From a bacterium (GTDB taxonomy: Bacteria; UBA8248; JACPRG01; G963555815), in NCBI GenBank assembly GCA_965218795.1, contig OZ244653.1, positions 5,088,001-5,152,000 on the forward strand: a stretch of 64,000 nucleotides of DNA, written 5' to 3'. The notes beneath the pieces are model-generated. The model made no database searches. It was not told the origin of the DNA and was given only the letters and a program-made list of their open reading frames with translations. Shown one piece after another: positions 48,313 to 58,391 of this stretch; the first letter of the stretch is position 1, and each line of letters starts with the position of its first letter. A program made the position numbers and the translations under genes.

Positions 48313-50654
48313 ACCGGCCGGAAGAGGGACCGCATCGCCTCTCCACACGCATCACTCGACAGGATGAGAATATGGAACCGCTCAGGGTCGTCGGAAAACC
48401 CATCCCGCAGATCAATGCGCCGGAAAAGGTCCGGGGATACGCCAGGTATGTCGGAGATATGCAATTACCCCGGATGCTCCACGCCAAACTGCTCCGGAGT
48501 CCCCACGCCCACGCCCGCATCCTGGGTATCCGGGCGGACAAGGCCCTGCAGGTCCCCGGCGTTGCGGCGGTCGCCACGTCGGACGACACGCCGAAGGTGC
48601 CCTGGGGCGTGGTCAAGAATGACCAGCAGATCCTCGCGGTCGATAAGGTCCGTCACATCGGGGAGGAGGTTGCGGCCGTCGCCGCCGAGACCGAGGAAGC
48701 CGCGCTGGAGGCGGTCGAGCGTATCGAGGTGGAATACGAGGTCCTGCCGCCCGTCTTCGAATTGGAAGAGGCCCTCGCGCCCGGTGCGCCGGAAGTCCAT
48801 GAGGGAACGGGAAACGTGTCCCGGGAGCTCCGCATCCGCCACGGCGACGTCGAAAAAGGGTTTTCAGAATCCGCCGCCGTGCATGAAGAGACCTATACGA
48901 CGCCCCATCAGTTTCAGACTTACATGGAGCCGCTGGGCGCCCTGGCCGATATCGACGGGCAGGGCCGCATCACGCTGTACGTCCCCAGCCAATCCATATA
49001 CTTCACCCGGCGTCTCGTGGCCCAGGCCCTCCAGCTTCCCTCGACGAAGATTCGGGTCGTGCAGACCTGCGTGGGAGGCGCTTTCGGGGGCAAGCTCGGC
49101 GAAGATCCCATGGGGCACATTGCCTCCCTGATGGCGCTCAAGACGGGCCGTCCCGTCCGCCTCCTCAACAACCGTCTCGATGAATTTCAGGCCTCGCGGC
49201 CCCGGATGCCGGCGAAAATCCGCCTCGGAATGGGCGTGCGGGATGATGGAACCCTCGCCGCGAAGGAGGCGCAAATCCTCGGGAACAACGGGGCGTACAC
49301 GTGTTTTTCATACGAAGTGATCCAGGTGACGGCCACGAGGATGGACAATCTGTACCGGCAAGAGAATCTCAAGGTGGACGCCACGCTCGTCTACACCAAT
49401 CTCATTCCGGCGGGCGCCTTTCGCGGGTTCGGCAACCCGCAGATGTCCTTCGCGATGGAATCGCACATGGACGTCCTGGCGGAGAAGCTGGGCATGGATC
49501 CGGCGGAGCTCCGGCTTCGGAACGCCGTCCACGCAGGGGACGTCACGATCCACGGATGGGAACTGGGAAGCTGCGGGATCCAGGAGTGCATCGAGAAGGC
49601 GACAGAGGCGATCGATTGGAAGTCGCTTCGCTCGGCGAAGCAGGATCGGGAAGACGGCCGCTACCGGACGGGCATCGGCCTCGGCTGCGCCGTCCATTCA
49701 ACCTCCAGCCGGCAGCTCTCCAATTGGGACGGCTCGACGGCGGTCGTGAAGGTAGACGACGACGGAAAGGCCCAGGTCATCTGCGGCGAGGGGGAGCTGG
49801 GCCAGGGCGCGCAGACGGTCATCGCCCAGATTGCCGCCGAGGGACTGGGCCTGGAGGTGGACGACATAAGGGTCTCCGCGGCGGATACGGAGAACACGCC
49901 GCTCTGCTTCGGGGGCTACGGAAGCCGCCTGACGCTGATGGCGGGCAACGCCGTCCAGCGCGCGGCCGAAGGCTGCAAGAAGACCCTCCTGAACGTCGCC
50001 GCCGAGCAGTTGGAGGTTTCGCCGGGCGACTTACAGTTGGATCGCGGGATGATCTTCGTTCAGAGCGCGCCGGACAGGAAGATGACCATCGGCGATGCGG
50101 TGGCGGCGAACCTGCTCCGCGCGCAGGGGGACATCGTCTATCATCAGGCCACGTGGGACGCCCCCACCGTGACGCCCGACGAGGAGACCGCCTATGGCCG
50201 GACGACCGTGGCCTGTTCGTTCGTTTGCGTGATCGTCGTCGTCGAGGTGGACACCGAGACGGGGCAGGTCCATCTGAAACACATTGTCGCGGCCGACGAC
50301 CTGGGCAAGGCCATCAATCCGCTGACCGTCGAGGGGCAGGTGCAGGGGGAGCTGGCGCAGGGGCTGGGGTACGGCCTGTTTGAAAACGCCGTCGCCGAGG
50401 GAGGGCAGTTCGCCGGCGGAAACCTGGCTGATTACACTGTCCCCAAGGCCGACTCCCTTCCGGAGATCACCTCGATTTTCGTCGAATCCCTGGACCCGGA
50501 CGGTCCTTTCGGGGCCAAGGGCTGCTCGGAATGCGCGCTCGTCCCGACTGCGGCCGTCCTGGCGAATGCCGTCTACGACGCCGTCGGCGTTCGAATCACC
50601 TCCCTCCCCATCCGGCCGGAAATCATCCTGAGGGCCATGGCGGATCAGGTATAG
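48309..50654 (+). CDS. Xanthine dehydrogenase-family molybdopterin-binding subunit
   Basis: LRSPHAHA, GGAFGGK, AFRGFGNPQ, GQG, EGQVQG, GAKGCSE; start may be at 48372. Confidence 0.93.
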   Translation: MNRPEEGPHRLSTRITRQDENMEPLRVVGKPIPQINAPEKVRGYARYVGDMQLPRMLHAKLLRSPHAHARILGIRADKALQVPGVAAVATSDDTPKVPWGVVKNDQQILAVDKVRHIGEEVAAVAAETEEAALEAVERIEVEYEVLPPVFELEEALAPGAPEVHEGTGNVSRELRIRHGDVEKGFSESAAVHEETYTTPHQFQTYMEPLGALADIDGQGRITLYVPSQSIYFTRRLVAQALQLPSTKIRVVQTCVGGAFGGKLGEDPMGHIASLMALKTGRPVRLLNNRLDEFQASRPRMPAKIRLGMGVRDDGTLAAKEAQILGNNGAYTCFSYEVIQVTATRMDNLYRQENLKVDATLVYTNLIPAGAFRGFGNPQMSFAMESHMDVLAEKLGMDPAELRLRNAVHAGDVTIHGWELGSCGIQECIEKATEAIDWKSLRSAKQDREDGRYRTGIGLGCAVHSTSSRQLSNWDGSTAVVKVDDDGKAQVICGEGELGQGAQTVIAQIAAEGLGLEVDDIRVSAADTENTPLCFGGYGSRLTLMAGNAVQRAAEGCKKTLLNVAAEQLEVSPGDLQLDRGMIFVQSAPDRKMTIGDAVAANLLRAQGDIVYHQATWDAPTVTPDEETAYGRTTVACSFVCVIVVVEVDTETGQVHLKHIVAADDLGKAINPLTVEGQVQGELAQGLGYGLFENAVAEGGQFAGGNLADYTVPKADSLPEITSIFVESLDPDGPFGAKGCSECALVPTAAVLANAVYDAVGVRITSLPIRPEIILRAMADQV

Positions 50655-50828
50655 GGATTCTGGGGTTCGCTTCAGAGGACATTTTTCTTTTTGGGGGACA
50701 TTTTGGGCACTTGCGTGCCGGCCATTTCGTGGATGAGAGTCTTTCTGAGAATCATGGCCTCTGTGGCGCACGTCCATGCGACAGCTTGATGAGCAGGCAT
50801 GCAAGTGCATCAAGCTGACACGATGTGT

Positions 50829-51057
50829 CCCCCCCCCCCCCCCCAACCCCCCTGAAAAACTTTCATTTCGCGATGGAGGACCGCCCATGTACATGGGCGG
50901 TCCTCCATCGCAACAGCTTTCCTCATTGTTTATGTTCCGCGCCGGCAGACCCGTGTTCAGCGGACCCGCCCATACCGCGAGCAGGCCGAGCATTCGCTCG
51001 GCCGTCGAAAGTTTCTCGGGGGGTCGAGGGGGGCGGCTTTTCAAAGAAGCCCCCTCG
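50829..51057. repeat. MITE/REP-like foldback element with an internal 42-bp perfect palindrome
   Basis: Arms CCCCCCTGAAAAACTTTC / GAAAGTTTCTCGGGGGG; palindrome at 50870-50911. Confidence 0.7.
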
Positions 51058-51127
51058 AAATAATACTTCATGATTAAGAATGGTGTCCCCATAATTCCTG
51101 GATTCGGTCAGCCCATAAGAGCCAATC

Positions 51128-51331
51128 ATGGAACACGAGATCATCCGGAAGTTTCGGGAGAGGATGCGGGCGGCCGGATACGATGCGTTGATCGCCCTCT
51201 CCCCGTCCGTTCTGTCATTCCGAGGCCTGCCCCAGACACTTCCCCCGAAGAATCTTCTCTTCCCCAAAATACGTGTCATCTGTCAGGTCATTGCCCTGGA
51301 CCGCATCCGCGCTGCTGTGCAGCGTACGTAG
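51128..51331 (+). pseudogene. N-terminal fragment of an M24/creatinase-type peptidase
   Basis: RERMRAAGYDALIALSP, then similarity is lost. Confidence 0.4.
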
Positions 51332-51733
51332 GGGCGGGTCGGAGCCTGTGTCCCGAGCGAACGCGAGTGAGCACCCGCCCGCTCTCTGCATTTCGAGCGA
51401 GGGGCGCTTGGCCCCGACGAAAAATCCCGCCTTTTCGATTTCCTCCCTCCTTGAATCTGCGGTATTTGCGGATTCTTGTCGTTTCCCCTAACCGGTTTCC
51501 CCGTCCGCGGACCTGTTTTATCATTGATTTTCCCGATAAAAGTGCAAAGATTCCGACCAACGGCAGTTCCTTGGATAGAAAATACACTTGAGTCTGGGGT
51601 ATTTCGTATTATATTCGTATTTATGGTTTTTGAGGGAGGAAGCCGAGTGGAGTATGTCCGGATCGGATTATCGAAATTACCGATAGATTCCGGTCGCTGA
51701 GGCCCTTCGGTTAAACATTAAGAAAAGACCAAA

Positions 51734-51797
51734 CAAAGCCAAATAGTTGCTGAAAAATAAGGAAAGTTGATTTGGCTTTGAGCGGGGAAAGCCAAAT
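51734..51797. promoter_or_regulatory. Three copies of AAAGCCAAAT (inverted plus direct) upstream of the Mrr-like gene
   Basis: CAAAGCCAAAT 51734-44, ATTTGGCTTTG 51770-80, AAAGCCAAAT 51788-97. Confidence 0.5.
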
Positions 51798-51852
51798 ATT
51801 CGGGTTTCAGTTATCGGGAAAATCAATGAAAAAATGATTCGGGAGGCAAAAA

Positions 51853-52554
51853 ATGGCGCTTTACTTGGTGAGAGCGGGTAAGCATGGTGAGCATGAACAA
51901 CGGTTCTTACAGAGGAACCGTATCTATCTGACTTGGGGGGGACTCAAGCATGATCTAAGCAAGCTTGAGGACAAACCAGCACTGAGAAACCTGCTTGAGG
52001 TAGTCTACCCAGATGCCTCCAAAGGGAGAATTAGTAGTTTTACCGGCCAAATTTGGATTTTCGCAAAGAAGATTCAACAAGACGACTGGATCGCCCTTCC
52101 AAGCAAACTCAAACCTGCAATCCATATTGGAGAGGTCGTTGGCGAATATGTCTTTCACAAAGACGAAAAAGACCCGTATTTCCATTCCAGAGAGGTTAGA
52201 TGGATAGAAACCGATATTCCTCGCTCCAATTTTGACCAAGACGTCTTGTATTCTCTAGGGGCTCAAGGGTCAATCTGCCAACTCAGACGAAACAACGCCG
52301 AGGCTAGAATTCGTGAGATGGCGGGAAGTGGGTGGAAAGCTGGCTCGCTACCCCTGGATTTGGGGGATGAGGATGAAGAGGAATCCGAAGGTCCCGTGGA
52401 TCTTGAAGAGATTGCCCGGGACCAGATTGCTCAACTAATCACCGCAAAGTTTAAAGGGCACGGACTTGCACGACTTACTGAAGCATTGCTGAAGGCCCAA
52501 GGTTACACAACATTCAAGAGCCCAGAGGGGCCGGATAAAGGTGTAGACATTCTA
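51853..52554 (+). pseudogene. Mrr-like restriction endonuclease, truncated by IS630
   Basis: LVRAGKHGE N-terminus, [25 protein letters not shown]; cut before the QxK catalytic motif; lower GC. Confidence 0.88.
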
Positions 52555-53640
52555 GTGTACTGTCGCAGAAATTTTTTCACAAAGGCGTTTGATCTTTGCA
52601 AGGATGGAATCGGCCGTGGCCGTCCACACAAACGGCTGGGCGTTTTCGTTCCAGTGGTCGGTGAATCGGTCAATCCGGCGGATCAGTTCTTTCACTTTGT
52701 TGAAGGAGCCCCGTCGAATCGCACGTTGCGTGATGATGTGAAACCAGATTTCCACTTGGTTGAGCCAGGAAGCATACGTCGGCGTGAAGTGGAGTTGAAA
52801 CCGTGGGTGTCTTGCCAACCATTGCTTGATTTTGGCGTGCTTGTGGGTGGCGTAGTTGTCGATCACCAAATGAATGTCCAAATCCGGCGGCACCTGCTCC
52901 TCGATGTGGCGTAGAAACTGAAGAAATTCCTGATGACGATGGCGGGGCTTACACTGCGCCATGACTTCTCCGGTCTGGATGTCCAGCGCGGCAAACAGAG
53001 TCGTTGTGCCATGGCGCCTGTAGTCGTGGGTGACCCCTTCCACATAGCCCAAGCCCAAGGGCAGCAACGGCTGCGTGCGTTCCAGAGCCTGGACCTGGCT
53101 CTTCTCGTCCACGCACAGCACCATGGCATGCTCGGGCGGATTCAGGTATAACCCCACGATGTCGCGTACTTTCTCCACGAAGAAGGGATCCGTGGAGAGT
53201 TTGAAGTGCGCTTGTCGATGGGGCTGCAACCCGAAGGCACGCCAGATGCGATGCACCGTATCTTTGGATACACCCGTCGCCTGCGCCATGGAACGCACCG
53301 TCCACTGGGTCGCCTCGTTGGGACGCTCTTTGAGTGTCTTGTATACGACCTCGGCCACTTGCTCATCCTCAATCGATCGCGGCGCTCCAGGCCGCAATTC
53401 GTCATACAGGCCGATCAGGCCGCGGTCGAGATACCGCTGGCGCCATTTTCCCACGGTGGCACGATTCACGCCAAGCGCCTCGCCAACCGCACGATTGGGC
53501 TTGCCATCGGCGGCCAACAAGACAATCTGGGCACGGCGCACCAGCCCATGGGGTAGGCTGCGGGAATGGGCCATAGACTCCAATTGCTGTCGAGCATCAT
53601 CGCTCAACTCCAAAGCTTTCAGCGGGCGTCCCCGTGGCAT
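52552..53640 (-). CDS. IS630 transposase
   Basis: [52 protein letters not shown]. Confidence 0.96.
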
Positions 53641-53723
53641 AGGTTCCTCCTTGAAAAAGGGGTGATCAGGAAACCTATGCACAAACATGACTTTTGCCTA
53701 CTTATTCTTGAGACGAAACACTA
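52553..53723 (-). mobile_element. IS630-family insertion sequence
   Basis: Ends CTAGTGT...ACACTAG with TA at both sides; intact transposase inside. Confidence 0.93.
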
Positions 53724-54107
53724 GAGAGTCGCTACCGCTACTCCATCGGCCTCGTCTACAACACCTTCCCGACACCGTCCGGCTTCGTGGACGGGGACAT
53801 GGACAAGTCGAAGCTGGGGCCGCTGGCCCAGGCCGTCCTCGCCGCCCGCGAGAACCATCCCGGGGCGACCCTCGCCACCCTCTACGACCCCGACCTCATG
53901 CCGCCCGACCTCCGCAAGGCCCACCAAACCCTCGACCGCGCCGTGGACCGCCTCTACCGCCGCACCCCCTTCGCCTCCGACCGCGAGCGCGTTGAGCACC
54001 TCTTTGCCCTCTACGAGCGCCTGCAAGCTCCCCTCGCCGTCCAAGGTGTCCCCAAACGCAAAGCCAGACAGCGCGCGACCGGTGGGATGAGTCTTCTTAG
54101 GGTCTGA
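53721..54107 (+). pseudogene. 3' end of an MmeI-like type IIL restriction-modification gene (copy 1)
   Basis: LESRYRYSIGLVYNTFP...LATLYDPDLMPPDLRKAHQTLDRAVDRLY...ERVEHLFALY. Confidence 0.88.
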
Positions 54108-54196
54108 GCATCCTTCCCGCGCAGCCCGTCTCGAATGCTTTGGTCAAGGGGCGGGAACCAAGGCGCCACCGGAAGCGACCGCAACTCCTGACGGTC

Positions 54197-54222
54197 GTCA
54201 TTCCCACGTACGCGGGAATCCA
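54197..54222. repeat. Single GTCATTCC..GGAATCCA palindrome
   Basis: GTCATTCCCACGTACGCGGGAATCCA, same family as at 21.7 and 23.0 kb. Confidence 0.75.
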
Positions 54223-54434
54223 GTCTCCCTCACCCCCTTTGGGGTCAGGCCGAGGACCGGGACTGACGCTTCCCCCTGCGTCCCAGGTCCCAAGTAGTTT
54301 CGCTCGAATTACGTATAATATTGACACTTCCCCATTGTCTGTCAAGAGAAGTTTTCGTTTTTATTTTGTTTTACAGGGTTTTCCGGATGTTTGATTTTTT
54401 CTTCGGGGTGTACCAAATCTGTAGTTTGAACGAA

Positions 54435-54755
54435 CTCTACAACACCGCGGCCATGGACACGCCCCCCGGCCGCCGGCGAAGAGGAACTGGAATGCCTCGC
54501 CCCCACGCCGATGCCGTCCTCGGCGCCCGCGAGAACCATCCCGGCGCGACGCTGGCCGACCTCTACGACCTTGACCTCATGCCGCCCGATCTTTGCAAGG
54601 CCCGCCAAGCCCTCGGCCGCGCCGTGGACCGGATATATCGGCCCGGCGGCTTCGCTTCGGAGCGTGAGCGCGTCGAGCATTTGTTCATGCTCTATGAGAA
54701 AATGCGTGCGCCCCTTGAGGCTGGGGTGAAGATGAAAAGGAGGGGGAGGGGGTGA
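54435..54755 (+). pseudogene. 3' end of an MmeI-like gene (copy 2, degenerate)
   Basis: LYNT...AVLGARENHPGATLADLYDLDLMPPDL...RAVDRIY...ERERVEHLFMLYEKM. Confidence 0.85.
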
Positions 54756-55534
54756 ACGACCCACATGTAGTCGCGTTACTTTATCGCGTCGAGCATGGCG
54801 AATCGGTTGACTATAGCGAGGCGGAGCCGCTTGTTCGCGAAGAACCCGCGTTTCGGCTGGAAGTCAAAGACAACAAAGTTCGTTTTGAGTTGAAGGACCA
54901 CTACGCGAGCGAAGAGGATGCGCGAAATGCCGTTGAAGACTACATTCGCGATTGGGAATTTGACGCTTGCCTTGAGAAAGGGCCGGACTCCTTTCGGTTA
55001 AAATTCGACAGAGCGAAGATTATAGACCGGAATCCGACACTAGGTGCGTGTCGTCTCGCCGCCGAGGTAACAGCTACAGGCTATGGCTCGTCTACACTCA
55101 CCATTGGGTTCCGCAGTTATCCTTCGCCCCCATCGGACATCAGGATCGACGCCGCTGTTCAGACGATGTTTGATCGGTACATGAATCATCTGCGAAGGCT
55201 CGAGCTACTTCCGGGGATGGCTAATTTTTGCCTTACTATGCTGGAGGATATGGCGGAACGGGCAAAACAGGGGAGGGAATCTAAGCGCAAAGCCGCTTCT
55301 CGATATTTTCAGATCGAAATGAAAGTCCTCCAGGAAATTGGTCGTCTTTCCTCCACAAAAGGCGGCCCCTTGGGGGCGCGAAAGAGCGAGGGCGTCTTCC
55401 ATGACCTGACGAACGAAGAAAGTGGCTTTCTCCGGGTAGCTGTCAAGAAAATGATTCGCCGGGCCGCGGAGAAGGCTCATTCGCCGGGCAAAATACCCGC
55501 AAAAATCTCGCTGCCCGATCTGTCGCCGATATGA
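54752..55534 (+). CDS. Hypothetical protein
   Basis: 260-aa ORF, GTGA overlap with MmeI copy 2, lower GC; no family recognised. Confidence 0.8.
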   Translation: MNDPHVVALLYRVEHGESVDYSEAEPLVREEPAFRLEVKDNKVRFELKDHYASEEDARNAVEDYIRDWEFDACLEKGPDSFRLKFDRAKIIDRNPTLGACRLAAEVTATGYGSSTLTIGFRSYPSPPSDIRIDAAVQTMFDRYMNHLRRLELLPGMANFCLTMLEDMAERAKQGRESKRKAASRYFQIEMKVLQEIGRLSSTKGGPLGARKSEGVFHDLTNEESGFLRVAVKKMIRRAAEKAHSPGKIPAKISLPDLSPI

Positions 55535-55645
55535 GCAATGATGCTCCGACTTTCTCCACCGACATGACGTGAATTGACACGAGATTCCAAAGGGATAACA
55601 TGGAAACACCTGCCGCCACTTGGCGGACACATGATGGGGAAAGCG

Positions 55646-55891
55646 ATGGCGCGGAGCACTATCAACATTCTCGCCGAGTGGGATTCGGAGGCGCGGGTCT
55701 GGGTGGCCGAGAGCGAGGACGTGCCCGGACTCGCCGCCGAAGCGCCCACGCCCGAGGAACTGGAAGAGAAACTCAAGGTCCTCATTCCCGAACTGCTGGA
55801 CTTGAACGCCCATCTTCTGGATGACGCCGCTCCGCCGCGTCAGGCGAAAACGCATTTCAGCGCGTTCGATCGGGAAGTTCAGTTCGCCTGA
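55646..55891 (+). CDS. DUF1902 / HicB-like antitoxin
   Basis: AEWDSEARVWVAESEDVPGLAAEA.T.EEL...IPELLDLN. Confidence 0.88.
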   Translation: MARSTINILAEWDSEARVWVAESEDVPGLAAEAPTPEELEEKLKVLIPELLDLNAHLLDDAAPPRQAKTHFSAFDREVQFA

Positions 55892-55894
55892 TCC

Positions 55895-56088
55895 GTGGGC
55901 AATTACACCGGGGAATTGAAAAACTCCTGCGCGAGAAAGGCTGCCGTTTCGAGCGGCAGCGCAAGGGAGATCATGAAATCTGGTACAGCCCTGTTACGTC
56001 GAAGCGTTTTCCCGTCGATAATGAAATCAAATCCCGCCATACGGCCAACGCGGTGCTCAAACAGGCGGGTCTTCCAAAAGCCTTTTAA
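55895..56088 (+). pseudogene. HicA-family toxin with a 1-nt frameshift
   Basis: Adding one A in TTGAAAAAC gives MGNYTGELKKLLREKGCRFERQRKGDHEIWYSP...SRHTANAVLKQAGLPKAF*. Confidence 0.85.
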
Positions 56089-56118
56089 GCGAAAACGTCT
56101 CACCGGGGAGGAAGCGGT

Positions 56119-56667
56119 ATGAGTGAAACCGAAAGTACAGCAAGCGCTGCGTCGCTGGAAGCGCGGCTGCGCGACATCGAGGACAGGCTCGAAATCTACA
56201 ACCTGATCGCTTCGCACCCGCCGAGCGCCGACACCGGCGCCGACTATTACACCCGCGTCGTCTACACCGAAGACGGCGTCTTCGACCGTGGCGAAGGTCT
56301 CGACAGTGCAGTCGGCAACGAGGCCATCGGCGCCTTCACCCTGTCCCCCGAGCATCAGCGGGCAATTCACGGCGGCCTCGCCCACTGCGCCGGGCTGCCG
56401 CACATCGAGCTCAACGGCGATGCAGCCTATGTCACCTCGTACGTGCAGATCATCCACCGCGACGCCGAGGGCGCCGAACGCGAGCTGGCCAATCACGGCG
56501 CCTCAACCGGCTACCGCATCCATCGCGTCGTCGCCAACCGCTGGGAGCTGACGCGCACGCCCGGGGGCTGGAAGATCAAAAGCCGGAAGTTGCGCCCGCT
56601 CGACGGCTCGGCGCCGGCGCGCGATATCCTGGCCCACGCTCTGGCGCGCTACCGCCCCGCCGACTGA
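56119..56667 (+). CDS. SnoaL/NTF2-like family protein
   Basis: RLRDIEDRLEIYNL, YTEDGVF, GDAA, GGWKIKSR. Confidence 0.88.
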   Translation: MSETESTASAASLEARLRDIEDRLEIYNLIASHPPSADTGADYYTRVVYTEDGVFDRGEGLDSAVGNEAIGAFTLSPEHQRAIHGGLAHCAGLPHIELNGDAAYVTSYVQIIHRDAEGAERELANHGASTGYRIHRVVANRWELTRTPGGWKIKSRKLRPLDGSAPARDILAHALARYRPAD

Positions 56668-56669
56668 CC

Positions 56670-56845
56670 CGCAGAGCCCTGGACCGCGCCGTGGAGGGGA
56701 TCTATCGGCGCAATGGATTTTCCTCTGAGCGCGAGCGGAGCATCTGTTCGCACTTTATGAAAAAATATGCGCGCCGTTGGCAGCGGATATGACTGCGAAG
56801 CCGAAACGGGGGAGAAGGGGTAAACCGGCTGATCGTGCAAGGTAG
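56670..56845 (+). pseudogene. 3' end of an MmeI-like gene (copy 3, shortest, frameshifted)
   Basis: Not in the ORF track: RRALDRAVEGIYRRNGFSSERE / EHLFALYEKICAPLAADMTAKPKRGRRG...*. Confidence 0.8.
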
Positions 56846-57371
56846 CGCAGCGAATGGGATTTCATGCTCGGTTTGCGCCGATACCACTCGTCGAGGACAA
56901 CAACTGGCGCGATGAGTCTCAGCACCGTCTGAACATCTGCATGAGAGTCGTTACTGAGGAGAGAAGCTTTGAAAAGGAGCCCGAATGAACGACATACATG
57001 ACGTTTCCGATATGGAAGCGATCACCTACGCCGCCAGCAAGCTGGACGCGGCGGCCGCGCTGTCCGCATCCTATCACCCAGATGCATATAAACCACATGA
57101 AGGGCCCGACAGACAGCGGGAAAAGTGCTCGCCAACCGCCTCGACCCTGATGATCCATGAGCCCCTTTTCCCATGATGTCAGCCGTGAGATCTTGGCGCA
57201 TGCCTCAGCAAAAGATGTCGATGCGGATTTTTTCGACGCGTTCCGATCTTCGATCGGGCCCGGCCTTTCGCCCCTCGTCGATTGTTGCCTGAAGTTGCCC
57301 GTCTGACGCCTCGATTGCTATGATTTCCCGCGGCTTACGAACCCGAGACGATACCGCCACCGGAGAAGTGA

Positions 57372-58391
57372 ACGATCAGCCGCAATCCGAAACTGTATCC
57401 CGGAAAACTGCCGCAGGAGGTGCTCGCCCGTATCCTCGCGGATGAGCCCGTTCGCGATCCCCGTGTGATTGCCGGGCCCGCCGTGGGCTGGGATGCGTCG
57501 GTCCTGGACTTCGGCGACCGATATCTCATCGCCAAGACCGACCCCATCACCTACGCCACGGACGAGATCGGATGGTTCGCCGTTCACGTGAACGCCAACG
57601 ACATCGCGTGCATGGGGGGAACGCCCCGTTGGTTTCTGGCCTCCCTCCTGATGCCCGGGGAGTCCTCTGATGAGGCCCTGGCGGAGCGGATTTTTTCCGA
57701 TATCCGCAAGGGATGCGCCGAAGCCGGAATCAGCCTGGTCGGCGGGCACACGGAGATCACCCCGGAGCTGTCCCGCCCCGTCGTGGCCGGTGTCATGCTG
57801 GGGGAGGCGGAGCCGGATCGACTCATCACGCCGGAGGGAGGGCAGGCCGGAGACGTCCTGGTCCTGACGAAGGGAATTCCGCTGGAGGCCGTCTCCATCA
57901 TGGCCCGCGAGAAAAGGGGGGACTTGGTGAAGGCGTTCGGGGAGGAGCGGGTCGAGGCCGCGGCCCGGTTTCTCCATGAGCCGGGCATCAGCGTGGTCAA
58001 AGACGCGAAAATTGCATGCGAGACCGTTTCCGTCCACGCTATGCACGACCCTACGGAAGGCGGCTTGGCCACGGCGGTCAACGAGCTTTCACAGGCAACG
58101 GGCCTGGGCGTCCGGATCGACGGCGAGGCGATTCCGGTCCTGGAGGAAGGACGGCTCTTCTGCGCCCATTTCGGCATGGACCCGCTGGGATCCTTTGCCT
58201 CGGGAGCATTGCTGATCTGTGTCGACCCGTCCGAGGCCGACCGGCTCCTCGCCGCCTTGAGGGATGGAGGGGTGTCCGCGGAAGCCATCGGGGAGATGAC
58301 GGCCGCGGGGGAGCGGGTCATGATCCGGAAGGAGGGGAGGGAAGAGCCCCTCCCCATTTTCAACATGGACGAGATCGGAAAGATCCTTTGA
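57372..58391 (+). CDS. AIR synthase / HypE-like family protein; start uncertain
   Basis: PGKLP, KTDPIT, NANDIA, GGHTE, MHDPTEGG, SGALL. Confidence 0.88.
   Translation, partial: TISRNPKLYPGKLPQEVLARILADEPVRDPRVIAGPAVGWDASVLDFGDRYLIAKTDPITYATDEIGWFAVHVNANDIACMGGTPRWFLASLLMPGESSDEALAERIFSDIRKGCAEAGISLVGGHTEITPELSRPVVAGVMLGEAEPDRLITPEGGQAGDVLVLTKGIPLEAVSIMAREKRGDLVKAFGEERVEAAARFLHEPGISVVKDAKIACETVSVHAMHDPTEGGLATAVNELSQATGLGVRIDGEAIPVLEEGRLFCAHFGMDPLGSFASGALLICVDPSEADRLLAALRDGGVSAEAIGEMTAAGERVMIRKEGREEPLPIFNMDEIGKIL

What the first reader, a model, noticed from the sequence alone, without database searches (positions are those of the whole stretch)
53721..56845. Three staggered copies of an MmeI-type 3' end interleaved with cargo genes: a possible cassette-accretion hotspot
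Seen: the same C-terminal segment of a type IIL (MmeI-like) restriction-modification gene occurs three times in the same orientation (53721-54107, 54435-54755, 56670-56845). The copies are mutually diverged, progressively shorter and more decayed, each with a different basic tail. Different DNA follows each copy: a palindromic repeat; a hypothetical gene translationally coupled by GTGA plus HicB/HicA plus SnoaL; and an unassigned fragment. Known: in MmeI enzymes the specificity region lies just upstream of this conserved end. Inference: foreign alleles repeatedly recombined at the conserved 3' end, replacing it and bringing their downstream genes. This would build an integrase-free array in which the RM gene end serves as the homology arm and could also swap specificity.
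Basis: partly seen in the sequence, partly recalled or inferred. Interest (0 to 1): 0.75.

Follow-up and report, generated by a model that had tools for sequence, protein, structure and literature searches.

The report
Stranded MmeI gene tails, recombination scars
The three repeated ends of a restriction-modification gene are real: the first is the cut-off end of a whole gene split by a jumping element, and the other two are likely scars left when DNA from related bacteria recombined in through this shared gene and brought neighbouring genes along, a pattern common in this bacterial class and uncommon in the other genomes checked.

Summary
Confirmed: three same-strand, diverged MmeI 3' ends.

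Correction: copy 1 is not a displaced end. Its 813 missing codons lie 2.4 Mb away beside an identical IS630, swapped reciprocally with an Mrr-like gene; another sample has both genes unsplit. The array is one gene plus two remnants.

Cargo follows whole genes in some genomes and remnants in others. The copy 2-to-SnoaL block matches another family's locus at 75-91% and joins copy 3 at a microhomology. One clade is rejected (AU p=2e-5).

Against: remnants lack the specificity residues; some are internally collapsed whole genes; no within-species variation was seen.

Likely mechanism: anchored illegitimate recombination ('C-terminal displacement'), known from Rhs and T6SS arrays, plus later exchange at remnants. 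I found no paper on it for MmeI; this scan noted it before at another RM gene (e1-8757484).

The parts
51853..52554 (+). 5' 234 codons of an Mrr-like restriction gene (PADLOC PDC-S02), cut at the IS630 target; its 3' half is at G000:C1:2735871-2736202
   Evidence: (E 2e-88); whole without IS in run X6
52552..53724 (-). IS630-family element with CTAG at both ends; one of 10 identical copies; site of a reciprocal exchange with the copy at C1:2734701-2735873
53721..54107 (+). Copy 1: severed 3' end (MmeI residue 805 onward, E806/R808 type) of a third whole MmeI gene whose first 813 codons are at C1:2732265-2734703
   Evidence: contiguous with the 5' part in run X8
54196..54221 (.). REP-like palindrome ATTCCC-N8-GGGAAT, a genome-wide repeat
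   Evidence: (78 copies)
54246..54436 (.). Dispersed non-coding repeat of this genome (5 other copies, 69-75% alike); abuts the 5' edge of copy 2
54466..54755 (+). Copy 2: remnant of the MmeI C-terminal helical domain with a 1-nt deletion; 84% to gene B of the same genome; its purine-rich tail overlaps the next start
54752..55534 (+). 260-aa gene, no Pfam or PADLOC hit; predicted C-terminal HEPN-like helical domain; directly behind an MmeI end in 4 of 5 other class copies
   Evidence: best Z 8.1, rmsd 3.4, 103 aligned
55631..55891 (+). HicB-like antitoxin (DUF1902); 91-92% nt to G048 and G021
55895..56088 (+). HicA toxin gene, frameshifted relative to G021
56119..56667 (+). SnoaL-like gene; 82-83% aa to genus g7 copies beside MmeI loci versus 72% to the same-genus G001 copy
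56668..56691 (+). Joint between donor post-SnoaL DNA and MmeI: 16 of 24 bases alike with a 7-base GC core
56668..56845 (+). Copy 3: short MmeI 3' remnant with a 4-nt deletion; inferred to be the oldest, resident gene end
56846..57419 (.). Unassigned DNA, no match in the genome or fetched loci
57420..58391 (+). AIR-synthase-family gene, the vertically inherited right flank (81% aa to G001, 46-47% to genus g7)

Best explanation
The locus is one MmeI-type restriction-modification gene, now split by an IS630 exchange, followed by two stranded 3' ends that are likely scars of sequential displacement, in which DNA from a related bacterium would pair with the conserved MmeI gene and join at its far end by microhomology. 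Shown: the IS630 split; the remnants and their decay; the foreign affinity of the copy 2-to-SnoaL block; a microhomology at the SnoaL/copy 3 joint; shuffling of tail-plus-cargo units and of TRDs among class genomes. Inferred order: copy 3 was the resident end; a block [MmeI end, 260-aa gene, hicB, hicA, snoaL] entered in front of it; a later allele (gene C) displaced copy 2; IS630 then cut gene C. Also inferred: once a remnant exists it can serve as a right-hand homology arm for ordinary double crossovers. Long displaced copies would be lost by recombination with the intact gene, leaving only short, diverged C-terminal pieces. The remnants are non-functional by-products; specificity changes come from crossovers on both sides of the TRD, not from the remnants.
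For: IS split. Non-monophyly: AU p=2e-5. Window 54501-55827 aligns at 77% to G048's intact MmeI end, 260-aa gene and hicB; hicB/hicA/snoaL are 87-92% to G048/G021, while flanking core proteins are 46-62% to those genomes. The donor 24-mer after the SnoaL stop has its best ungapped match along gene A where copy 3 begins, for 4 of 4 related donors (one tie). The same cargo follows intact genes and remnants: the 260-aa gene (G048 intact; window, G020, G037 remnants), a HEPN-like gene (G021, G035 intact; G036 remnant), hicBA (G011, G028 intact; G021, G050, G034 remnants). G033 r2, r3 and G036 r2 share one 5' junction but have different tails and cargo. 6 of 12 class loci carry 10 downstream remnants, all same-strand. 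TRD is decoupled from MTase and CTD. The same model is proposed for T6SS arrays (PMC5361080, passages) and rhs (PMC2935791, passages).
Against: The microhomology margin is thin: 16 vs 15 of 24, only tied-best in gene B, and the donors are kin. A deletion joint would also show microhomology. Three relatives' remnants (G021 r1, G050, G034) keep the MmeI promoter/leader, so they are collapsed whole genes. Copy 2's 5' edge abuts a resident repeat and its body is closest to the resident gene B, so its joint is not a clean donor joint. c2+c3 as a clade is not rejected (p=0.27). No copy-number variant was seen in three studies of this species. DNA uptake by this organism was not tested.
Confidence: 0.55

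Rival explanations
1. Whole MmeI-plus-cargo units were inserted in tandem, and the older gene copies then collapsed by internal or 5' deletions, leaving only their last codons.
For: G021 r1, G050 and G034 remnants are MmeI leader fused to 3' end, with three different joints. Partial leader copies lie upstream of the G021 gene. L194 holds two whole genes in tandem, 95-100% alike. G000 holds other MmeI debris from the start and middle of the gene.
Against: No leader match was found near c2 or c3, but that model came from genus-g7 leaders and did not detect G000's own leaders either. Copy 3 starts 1 base after the SnoaL stop, where donor and MmeI sequence overlap. No TRD-bearing intermediate was seen behind any of 12 class genes.
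Confidence: 0.25
2. The array is a selected, self-extending cassette system: remnants are kept as recombination arms and ribosome-binding tails so that defence cargo and specificities can be shuffled.
For: Strong class enrichment, 6 of 12 vs 2 of 66 (kin not independent). Shared junction with different cargo. Several cargo genes hit candidate defence families (PDC-S50, PDC-S31, TIR).
Against: Remnants carry stops and frameshifts and have scattered start points. A gene start within 80 nt follows 12 of 22 remnant ends and 6 of 12 whole genes, so no enrichment. The 260-aa family lies beside MmeI in 0 of 30 metagenome loci. The array looks static within the species.
Confidence: 0.1
3. Tyrosine-integrase elements carrying MmeI and cargo accumulated in tandem by site-specific integration and then decayed.
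For: A convergent tyrosine integrase lies 0.6-2.4 kb downstream of MmeI in 7 of 74 non-class loci, and its 3' fragment precedes G033 r2/r3 and G036 r2.
Against: No piece of that integrase in the 64-kb window (best E 0.25). No tRNA at the array or in 15 of 17 loci. Remnant boundaries are not constant as att sites would be.
Confidence: 0.08
4. Local tandem duplication of one gene end followed by divergence.
For: Copies are adjacent and co-oriented; c1 and c2 are 82% alike locally.
Against: One clade rejected for c1+c2+c3 and for c1+c2 (p about 2e-5). The within-window copies rank 21st to 83rd of 89 as each other's neighbours. The DNA between copies is unrelated.
Confidence: 0.02

Closest known systems
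Sequential displacement arrays at Vibrio cholerae T6SS loci by homology-facilitated illegitimate recombination (Kirchberger et al. 2017, PMC5361080; passages read)
   Same: Conserved upstream anchor, new module inserted in front, old 3' end and its downstream gene pushed back, no integrase, later ordinary homologous exchange.
   Different: The anchor here is a restriction-modification gene. The stranded piece is the conserved C-terminal domain, and the retained downstream genes are mixed cargo rather than immunity genes with an obvious benefit.
rhs C-terminal displacement and orphan tips (Jackson et al. 2009, PMC2935791; passages read)
   Same: Intact gene followed by co-oriented 3' fragments of variable length; the same tip-plus-neighbour is attached in one genome and detached in another; fragments decay.
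   Different: rhs orphans keep the variable functional tip and are about 92% alike to the upstream core. Here the variable part (TRD) is absent from all 12 array remnants, and they are 56-84% alike to intact ends.
MmeI-family Type IIL RM enzymes (PDB 5HR4; Callahan et al. 2016, PMC4833311; passages read) and Type IIG TRD allelic swaps (Furuta et al. 2010, PMC2853133; passages read)
   Same: Gene B aligns to MmeI over 1-916 (E 4e-278). TRDs vary between conserved flanks: gene A has K-D and genes B and C have E-R at 806/808, predicting G versus C at position 6.
   Different: The passages read describe TRD replacement, not accumulation of stranded 3' ends with cargo.
Integron cassette arrays (general knowledge; compared in PMC5361080)
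   Same: Ordered array of small accessory genes, each next to a repeated element, newest at the front (inferred).
   Different: No integrase, no attC-type palindromes, no constant boundary; the repeat is decayed coding sequence.

Membership tests
MmeI-family Type IIL gene (source of the repeats) | MmeI_C helical-bundle domain following the TRD | tested here: met
   PF20467 E 8e-30 (c1), 4e-21 (c2); c3 by DNA HMM E 5e-29
MmeI-family Type IIL gene (source of the repeats) | Single ORF with nuclease, spacer, MTase, TRD and CTD | tested here: not met
   In this assembly gene C is in two pieces 2.4 Mb apart; a contig of run X8 runs across the break without the IS; c2 and c3 hold the CTD only
MmeI-family Type IIL gene (source of the repeats) | Restriction and methylation activity at a defined site | not testable with these tools
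   No methylome or assay
HFIR / sequential-displacement scar | Homologous anchor on one side of foreign DNA | tested here: met
   Block begins in MmeI sequence and is colinear with the G048 intact-gene locus; foreign affinity
HFIR / sequential-displacement scar | Short GC-rich microhomology at the far joint (criterion recalled from the HFIR literature, not read here) | tested here: inconclusive
   16 of 24 with a 7-base core, best site in gene A but by one base; only one window joint is clean; deletions give the same mark
HFIR / sequential-displacement scar | Displaced ends of different ancestry, co-oriented downstream of the current gene | tested here: met
   AU test; 10 of 10 downstream remnants co-oriented at 6 loci
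HFIR / sequential-displacement scar | Uptake of DNA and RecA-dependent one-sided integration | not testable with these tools
   Uncultured organism; competence genes not examined
rhs/CDI-type orphan module array | Orphans carry the variable functional tip that can be recombined back | tested here: not met
   All 12 array remnants start at HMM position 167 or later, past residues 806-810 at about position 135-150
Integron / site-specific cassette array | Tyrosine integrase at the array | tested here: not met
   No hit to the MmeI-associated integrase family in the window; no integrase-type Pfam hit among the 10 proteins of 51853-58391 scanned
Integron / site-specific cassette array | attC-like sites with constant cassette boundaries | tested here: inconclusive
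   Boundaries vary and repeat and Rfam scans show none, but no attC model was run

The most novel reading that the evidence does not exclude
In this bacterial class the MmeI gene works as a self-propagating, integrase-free gene-capture platform. Each stranded 3' end is a reusable homology arm, so tail-plus-cargo units and new recognition domains move between loci, genera and families in one step. The arriving enzyme's own cuts in the not-yet-methylated chromosome drive the recombination, which would explain why the arrays are frequent in this class and rare elsewhere.
Probability: 0.15. Interest if true: 0.72.

Novelty: new variant of a known kind. Interest (0 to 1): 0.42.

Why it matters
It shows a restriction-modification gene acting as a landing pad for gene acquisition without an integrase, with both sides of the exchange visible in sequenced genomes: the same cargo stands behind whole genes in some and behind scars in others. 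The stranded tails give a countable record of one-sided recombination in uncultured bacteria and point to uncharacterised genes enriched for candidate defence functions, such as the predicted HEPN-like 260-aa protein. The mechanism itself is already described for rhs and T6SS loci, and earlier notes of this scan report the same scar at other genes, so the advance is a new setting and a lineage-level enrichment, not a new machine.

Tried and rejected
1. First idea that IS630 deleted the 5' part of copy 1's gene: rejected; the part is present at C1:2732265-2734703.
2. Assembly mis-join as the reason for the repeats: rejected for the array, since contigs of runs X1, X5 and X6 (3 studies; one may be the source sample) cover 53930-55766 and 56550-57163 with 0-8 differences per contig. 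No contig spans the whole stretch, and contigs break at the IS, so a mis-join at the IS pair in this assembly is not excluded.
3. The 260-aa gene as an obligate MmeI partner: 0 of 30 metagenome loci.
4. Remnants kept for translational coupling: no enrichment over whole genes.
5. G004's apparent remnant: a transposon-like insertion with terminal inverted repeats and a short duplication, carrying MTase and REase genes; not counted as displacement.
6. L187's hit was dropped as an artefact of my masking of a frameshifted gene.
7. Rfam scan of 50500-57500: no match.
8. Foldseek on the 260-aa model: nothing at E 0.001; its N-terminal domain was barely tested. ESM Atlas gave no result.
9. No RNA holder listed.
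10. Literature searches (listings and abstracts' starts only) showed no paper on arrays of MmeI 3' ends; PMC12707154 has no occurrence of 'MmeI' or 'illegitimate'. Subscription papers and supplements were not seen.
Full report
Observation. The three segments are real MmeI C-terminal sequence on the + strand. Copies 1 and 2 hit Pfam MmeI_C at E 8e-30 and 4e-21. A DNA HMM built from the last 480 bases of 11 intact genes finds all three at E 7e-71, 5e-68 and 5e-29. They are 70-82% alike in local alignments. Copy 2 has a 1-base and copy 3 a 4-base deletion. The DNA after copy 1 is a genome-wide palindrome (78 copies) plus a dispersed repeat found at 5 other places.

Copy 1 is a severed gene, not a displaced end. 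It starts at the CTAG target of an IS630 present in 10 identical copies. An open frame of 813 codons of MmeI at G000:C1:2732265-2734703 stops at another copy of that IS, and the DNA beyond that copy reads as the missing 3' half of the window's Mrr-like gene. The two genes have exchanged ends across two IS copies. In sample S6, a contig of run X6 covers both halves of the Mrr-like gene with no IS, and a contig of run X8 runs from the 813-codon part straight into copy 1. The native structure is therefore one whole gene (gene C) plus two remnants. The genome also holds two intact MmeI genes, A and B, 96% alike over the first 2 kb and about 50% in the TRD, plus other fragments.

Relatives. 14 of 61 genomes searched match MmeI_C. 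Of 12 near-complete class loci examined (10 in relatives, plus A and B; one is frameshifted), 6 carry downstream remnants: 3, 2, 2, 1, 1 and 1. All 10 are co-oriented, against one 65-base piece upstream. Among the 79 best GTDB loci of gene B, 5 are class loci already counted and 66 others have 3 kb or more downstream. Of those, 2 have a downstream piece and 1 has a whole tandem copy; one hit was dropped as a masking artefact. Among plasmids, 323 records give 328 places. The arrays are thus frequent in this class and uncommon elsewhere in what was searched; Fisher's p of 9e-5 overstates this, because kin are not independent. Several of the closest MmeI relatives bear sponge-symbiont names in their record titles, so a sponge habitat is an inference.

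Cargo moves with the gene end. The 260-aa gene overlaps the stop of an intact MmeI gene in G048 and follows remnants in G020 and G037, as it does in the window. In G004 it follows a transposon-split end. A HEPN-like gene follows intact genes in G021 and G035 and the second remnant in G036. hicBA follows intact genes in G011 and G028 and remnants in G021, G050 and G034. G033 r2, G033 r3 and G036 r2 share one 5' junction, inside the end of a convergent tyrosine integrase gene, yet have different tails and cargo; this is best read as recombination between remnants. Outside the class the 260-aa family lay beside MmeI in 0 of 30 loci. Its model has mean pLDDT 87, and the C-terminal half resembles HEPN domains (Z 8.1, rmsd 3.4, 103 aligned; 6 of the top 10 titles name HEPN or a known HEPN toxin entry), a middling score for a helical bundle. 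Some cargo in relatives hits candidate defence families; much has no hit.

The window's block is foreign. Window 54501-55827 aligns at 77% with G048's intact gene end, 260-aa gene and hicB. hicB, hicA and snoaL are 87-92% alike to G048 or G021, which belong to another family whose core flank proteins are only 46-62% alike, against 81-82% for the same-genus G001. SnoaL occurs in 16 of 23 genus-g7 genomes and is closer to those beside MmeI loci (82-83%) than to G001's copy (72%), so it is a passenger from the donor's neighbourhood. Right after the SnoaL stop the sequence passes into copy 3. The donor 24-mer has its best ungapped match along all of gene A at that point for 4 of 4 related donors (16 of 24 in three, a tie at 15 in one); in gene B it is tied best for 3 of 4. 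In G048 the same post-SnoaL end is joined into hicB instead, so one-sided joints here are not special to MmeI.

Ancestry of the copies. A tree of 27 ends rejects copies 1+2+3 and 1+2 as a clade (AU p about 2e-5) but not 2+3 (p=0.27). Copy 2 groups with gene B and copy 1 with an orphan of G014, both 100/100; copy 3 is unplaced (bootstrap not fully settled, 315 columns). TRDs are decoupled from their flanks: G011/G028 95/59/93% and G021/G048 92/55/91% for MTase/TRD/CTD, while G020 and G048 share a TRD at 88%. Gene A has K-D and genes B and C have E-R at MmeI 806/808, which predicts G versus C at position 6 (PMC4833311, passages). All 12 array remnants begin downstream of those residues, so they store no specificity.

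Mechanism. Best supported (0.55): sequential displacement. Incoming DNA would pair in the conserved MmeI gene and join at its far end by microhomology, pushing back the old end and its neighbour, as proposed for V. cholerae T6SS arrays (PMC5361080, passages) and, by circular intermediates, for rhs (PMC2935791, passages). Existing remnants would then serve as right-hand arms. Long displaced copies would loop out against the intact gene, which would explain why only short ends persist; this step is inference. The main rival (0.25) is whole-gene insertion followed by collapse, which is what three relatives show directly, since their remnants keep the MmeI leader. Both routes probably operate in the class. 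An integrase route (0.08) has no trace in the window. A selected cassette system (0.1) lacks support from coupling (12 of 22 remnant ends versus 6 of 12 whole genes) and from within-species variation, none being seen in three studies. Local duplication is rejected.

Novelty and score. The process is known. My searches (listings only) found no account of it at MmeI genes, but earlier notes of this scan describe the same scar at another restriction-modification gene and at many other genes; I could not check their DNA. The term 'C-terminal displacement' and the Vibrio paper came to me through those notes. The microhomology criterion for HFIR is recalled. Verdict: new variant of a known kind, interest 0.42.

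Noticed in passing
G000:C1:2732265-2736202 and window 51853-54107: Reciprocal exchange between two co-oriented IS630 copies 2.4 Mb apart inactivated two restriction genes at once (MmeI gene C and an Mrr-like PDC-S02 gene); a single inversion cannot give this orientation.
   Followed up: partly
G000:C1:1179108-1181906 and 1591102-1593888: Two intact MmeI genes 96% alike from about 190 bp upstream through the MTase, with unrelated TRDs (K-D vs E-R at 806/808): a recent intragenomic copy with a specificity swap.
   Followed up: yes
L050:8212-9353 (G000:C1:3672208-3673352): A fourth orphan MmeI 3' end, next to an IS-like repeat, overlapping the start of a 304-aa gene with no Pfam or PADLOC hit.
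   Followed up: partly
L131, L135, L158, L167, L168, L178, L185: A tyrosine integrase lies convergent 0.6-2.4 kb downstream of MmeI in 7 of 74 non-class loci; the same family has pieces in 42 two-kb bins of G000. Possibly an MmeI-carrying integrative element.
   Followed up: partly
L039:8830-11638 (G004): Transposon-like unit with 11-base terminal inverted repeats, carrying a transposase-like gene, an MTase and an REase, inserted in an MmeI 3' end with a short duplication; it mimics a displacement scar.
   Followed up: partly
window 55895-56088; L044, L046: hicA is frameshifted in the window and deleted or truncated in G035 and G048, while hicB or its 5' part remains.
   Followed up: partly
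window 54246-54436, 50690-51060 and 51600-51850: Three different dispersed non-coding repeat families of this genome, one with a perfect 42-base palindrome at 50870-50911; no Rfam match.
   Followed up: no
L041:2743-3006: Two partial copies of the MmeI promoter/leader upstream of the intact G021 gene, a possible mirror-image scar at the 5' end.
   Followed up: no
L041, L042, L044, L046 downstream of the arrays: A family of small predicted membrane proteins starting MTEYEAAS or MTEFQQAT recurs at many spots near these loci in genus g7; no confident Pfam hit.
   Followed up: no
L059 upstream of 6001: The 260-aa gene family occurs behind the 3' end of another member of the same family, a similar tandem pattern without MmeI.
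   Followed up: no
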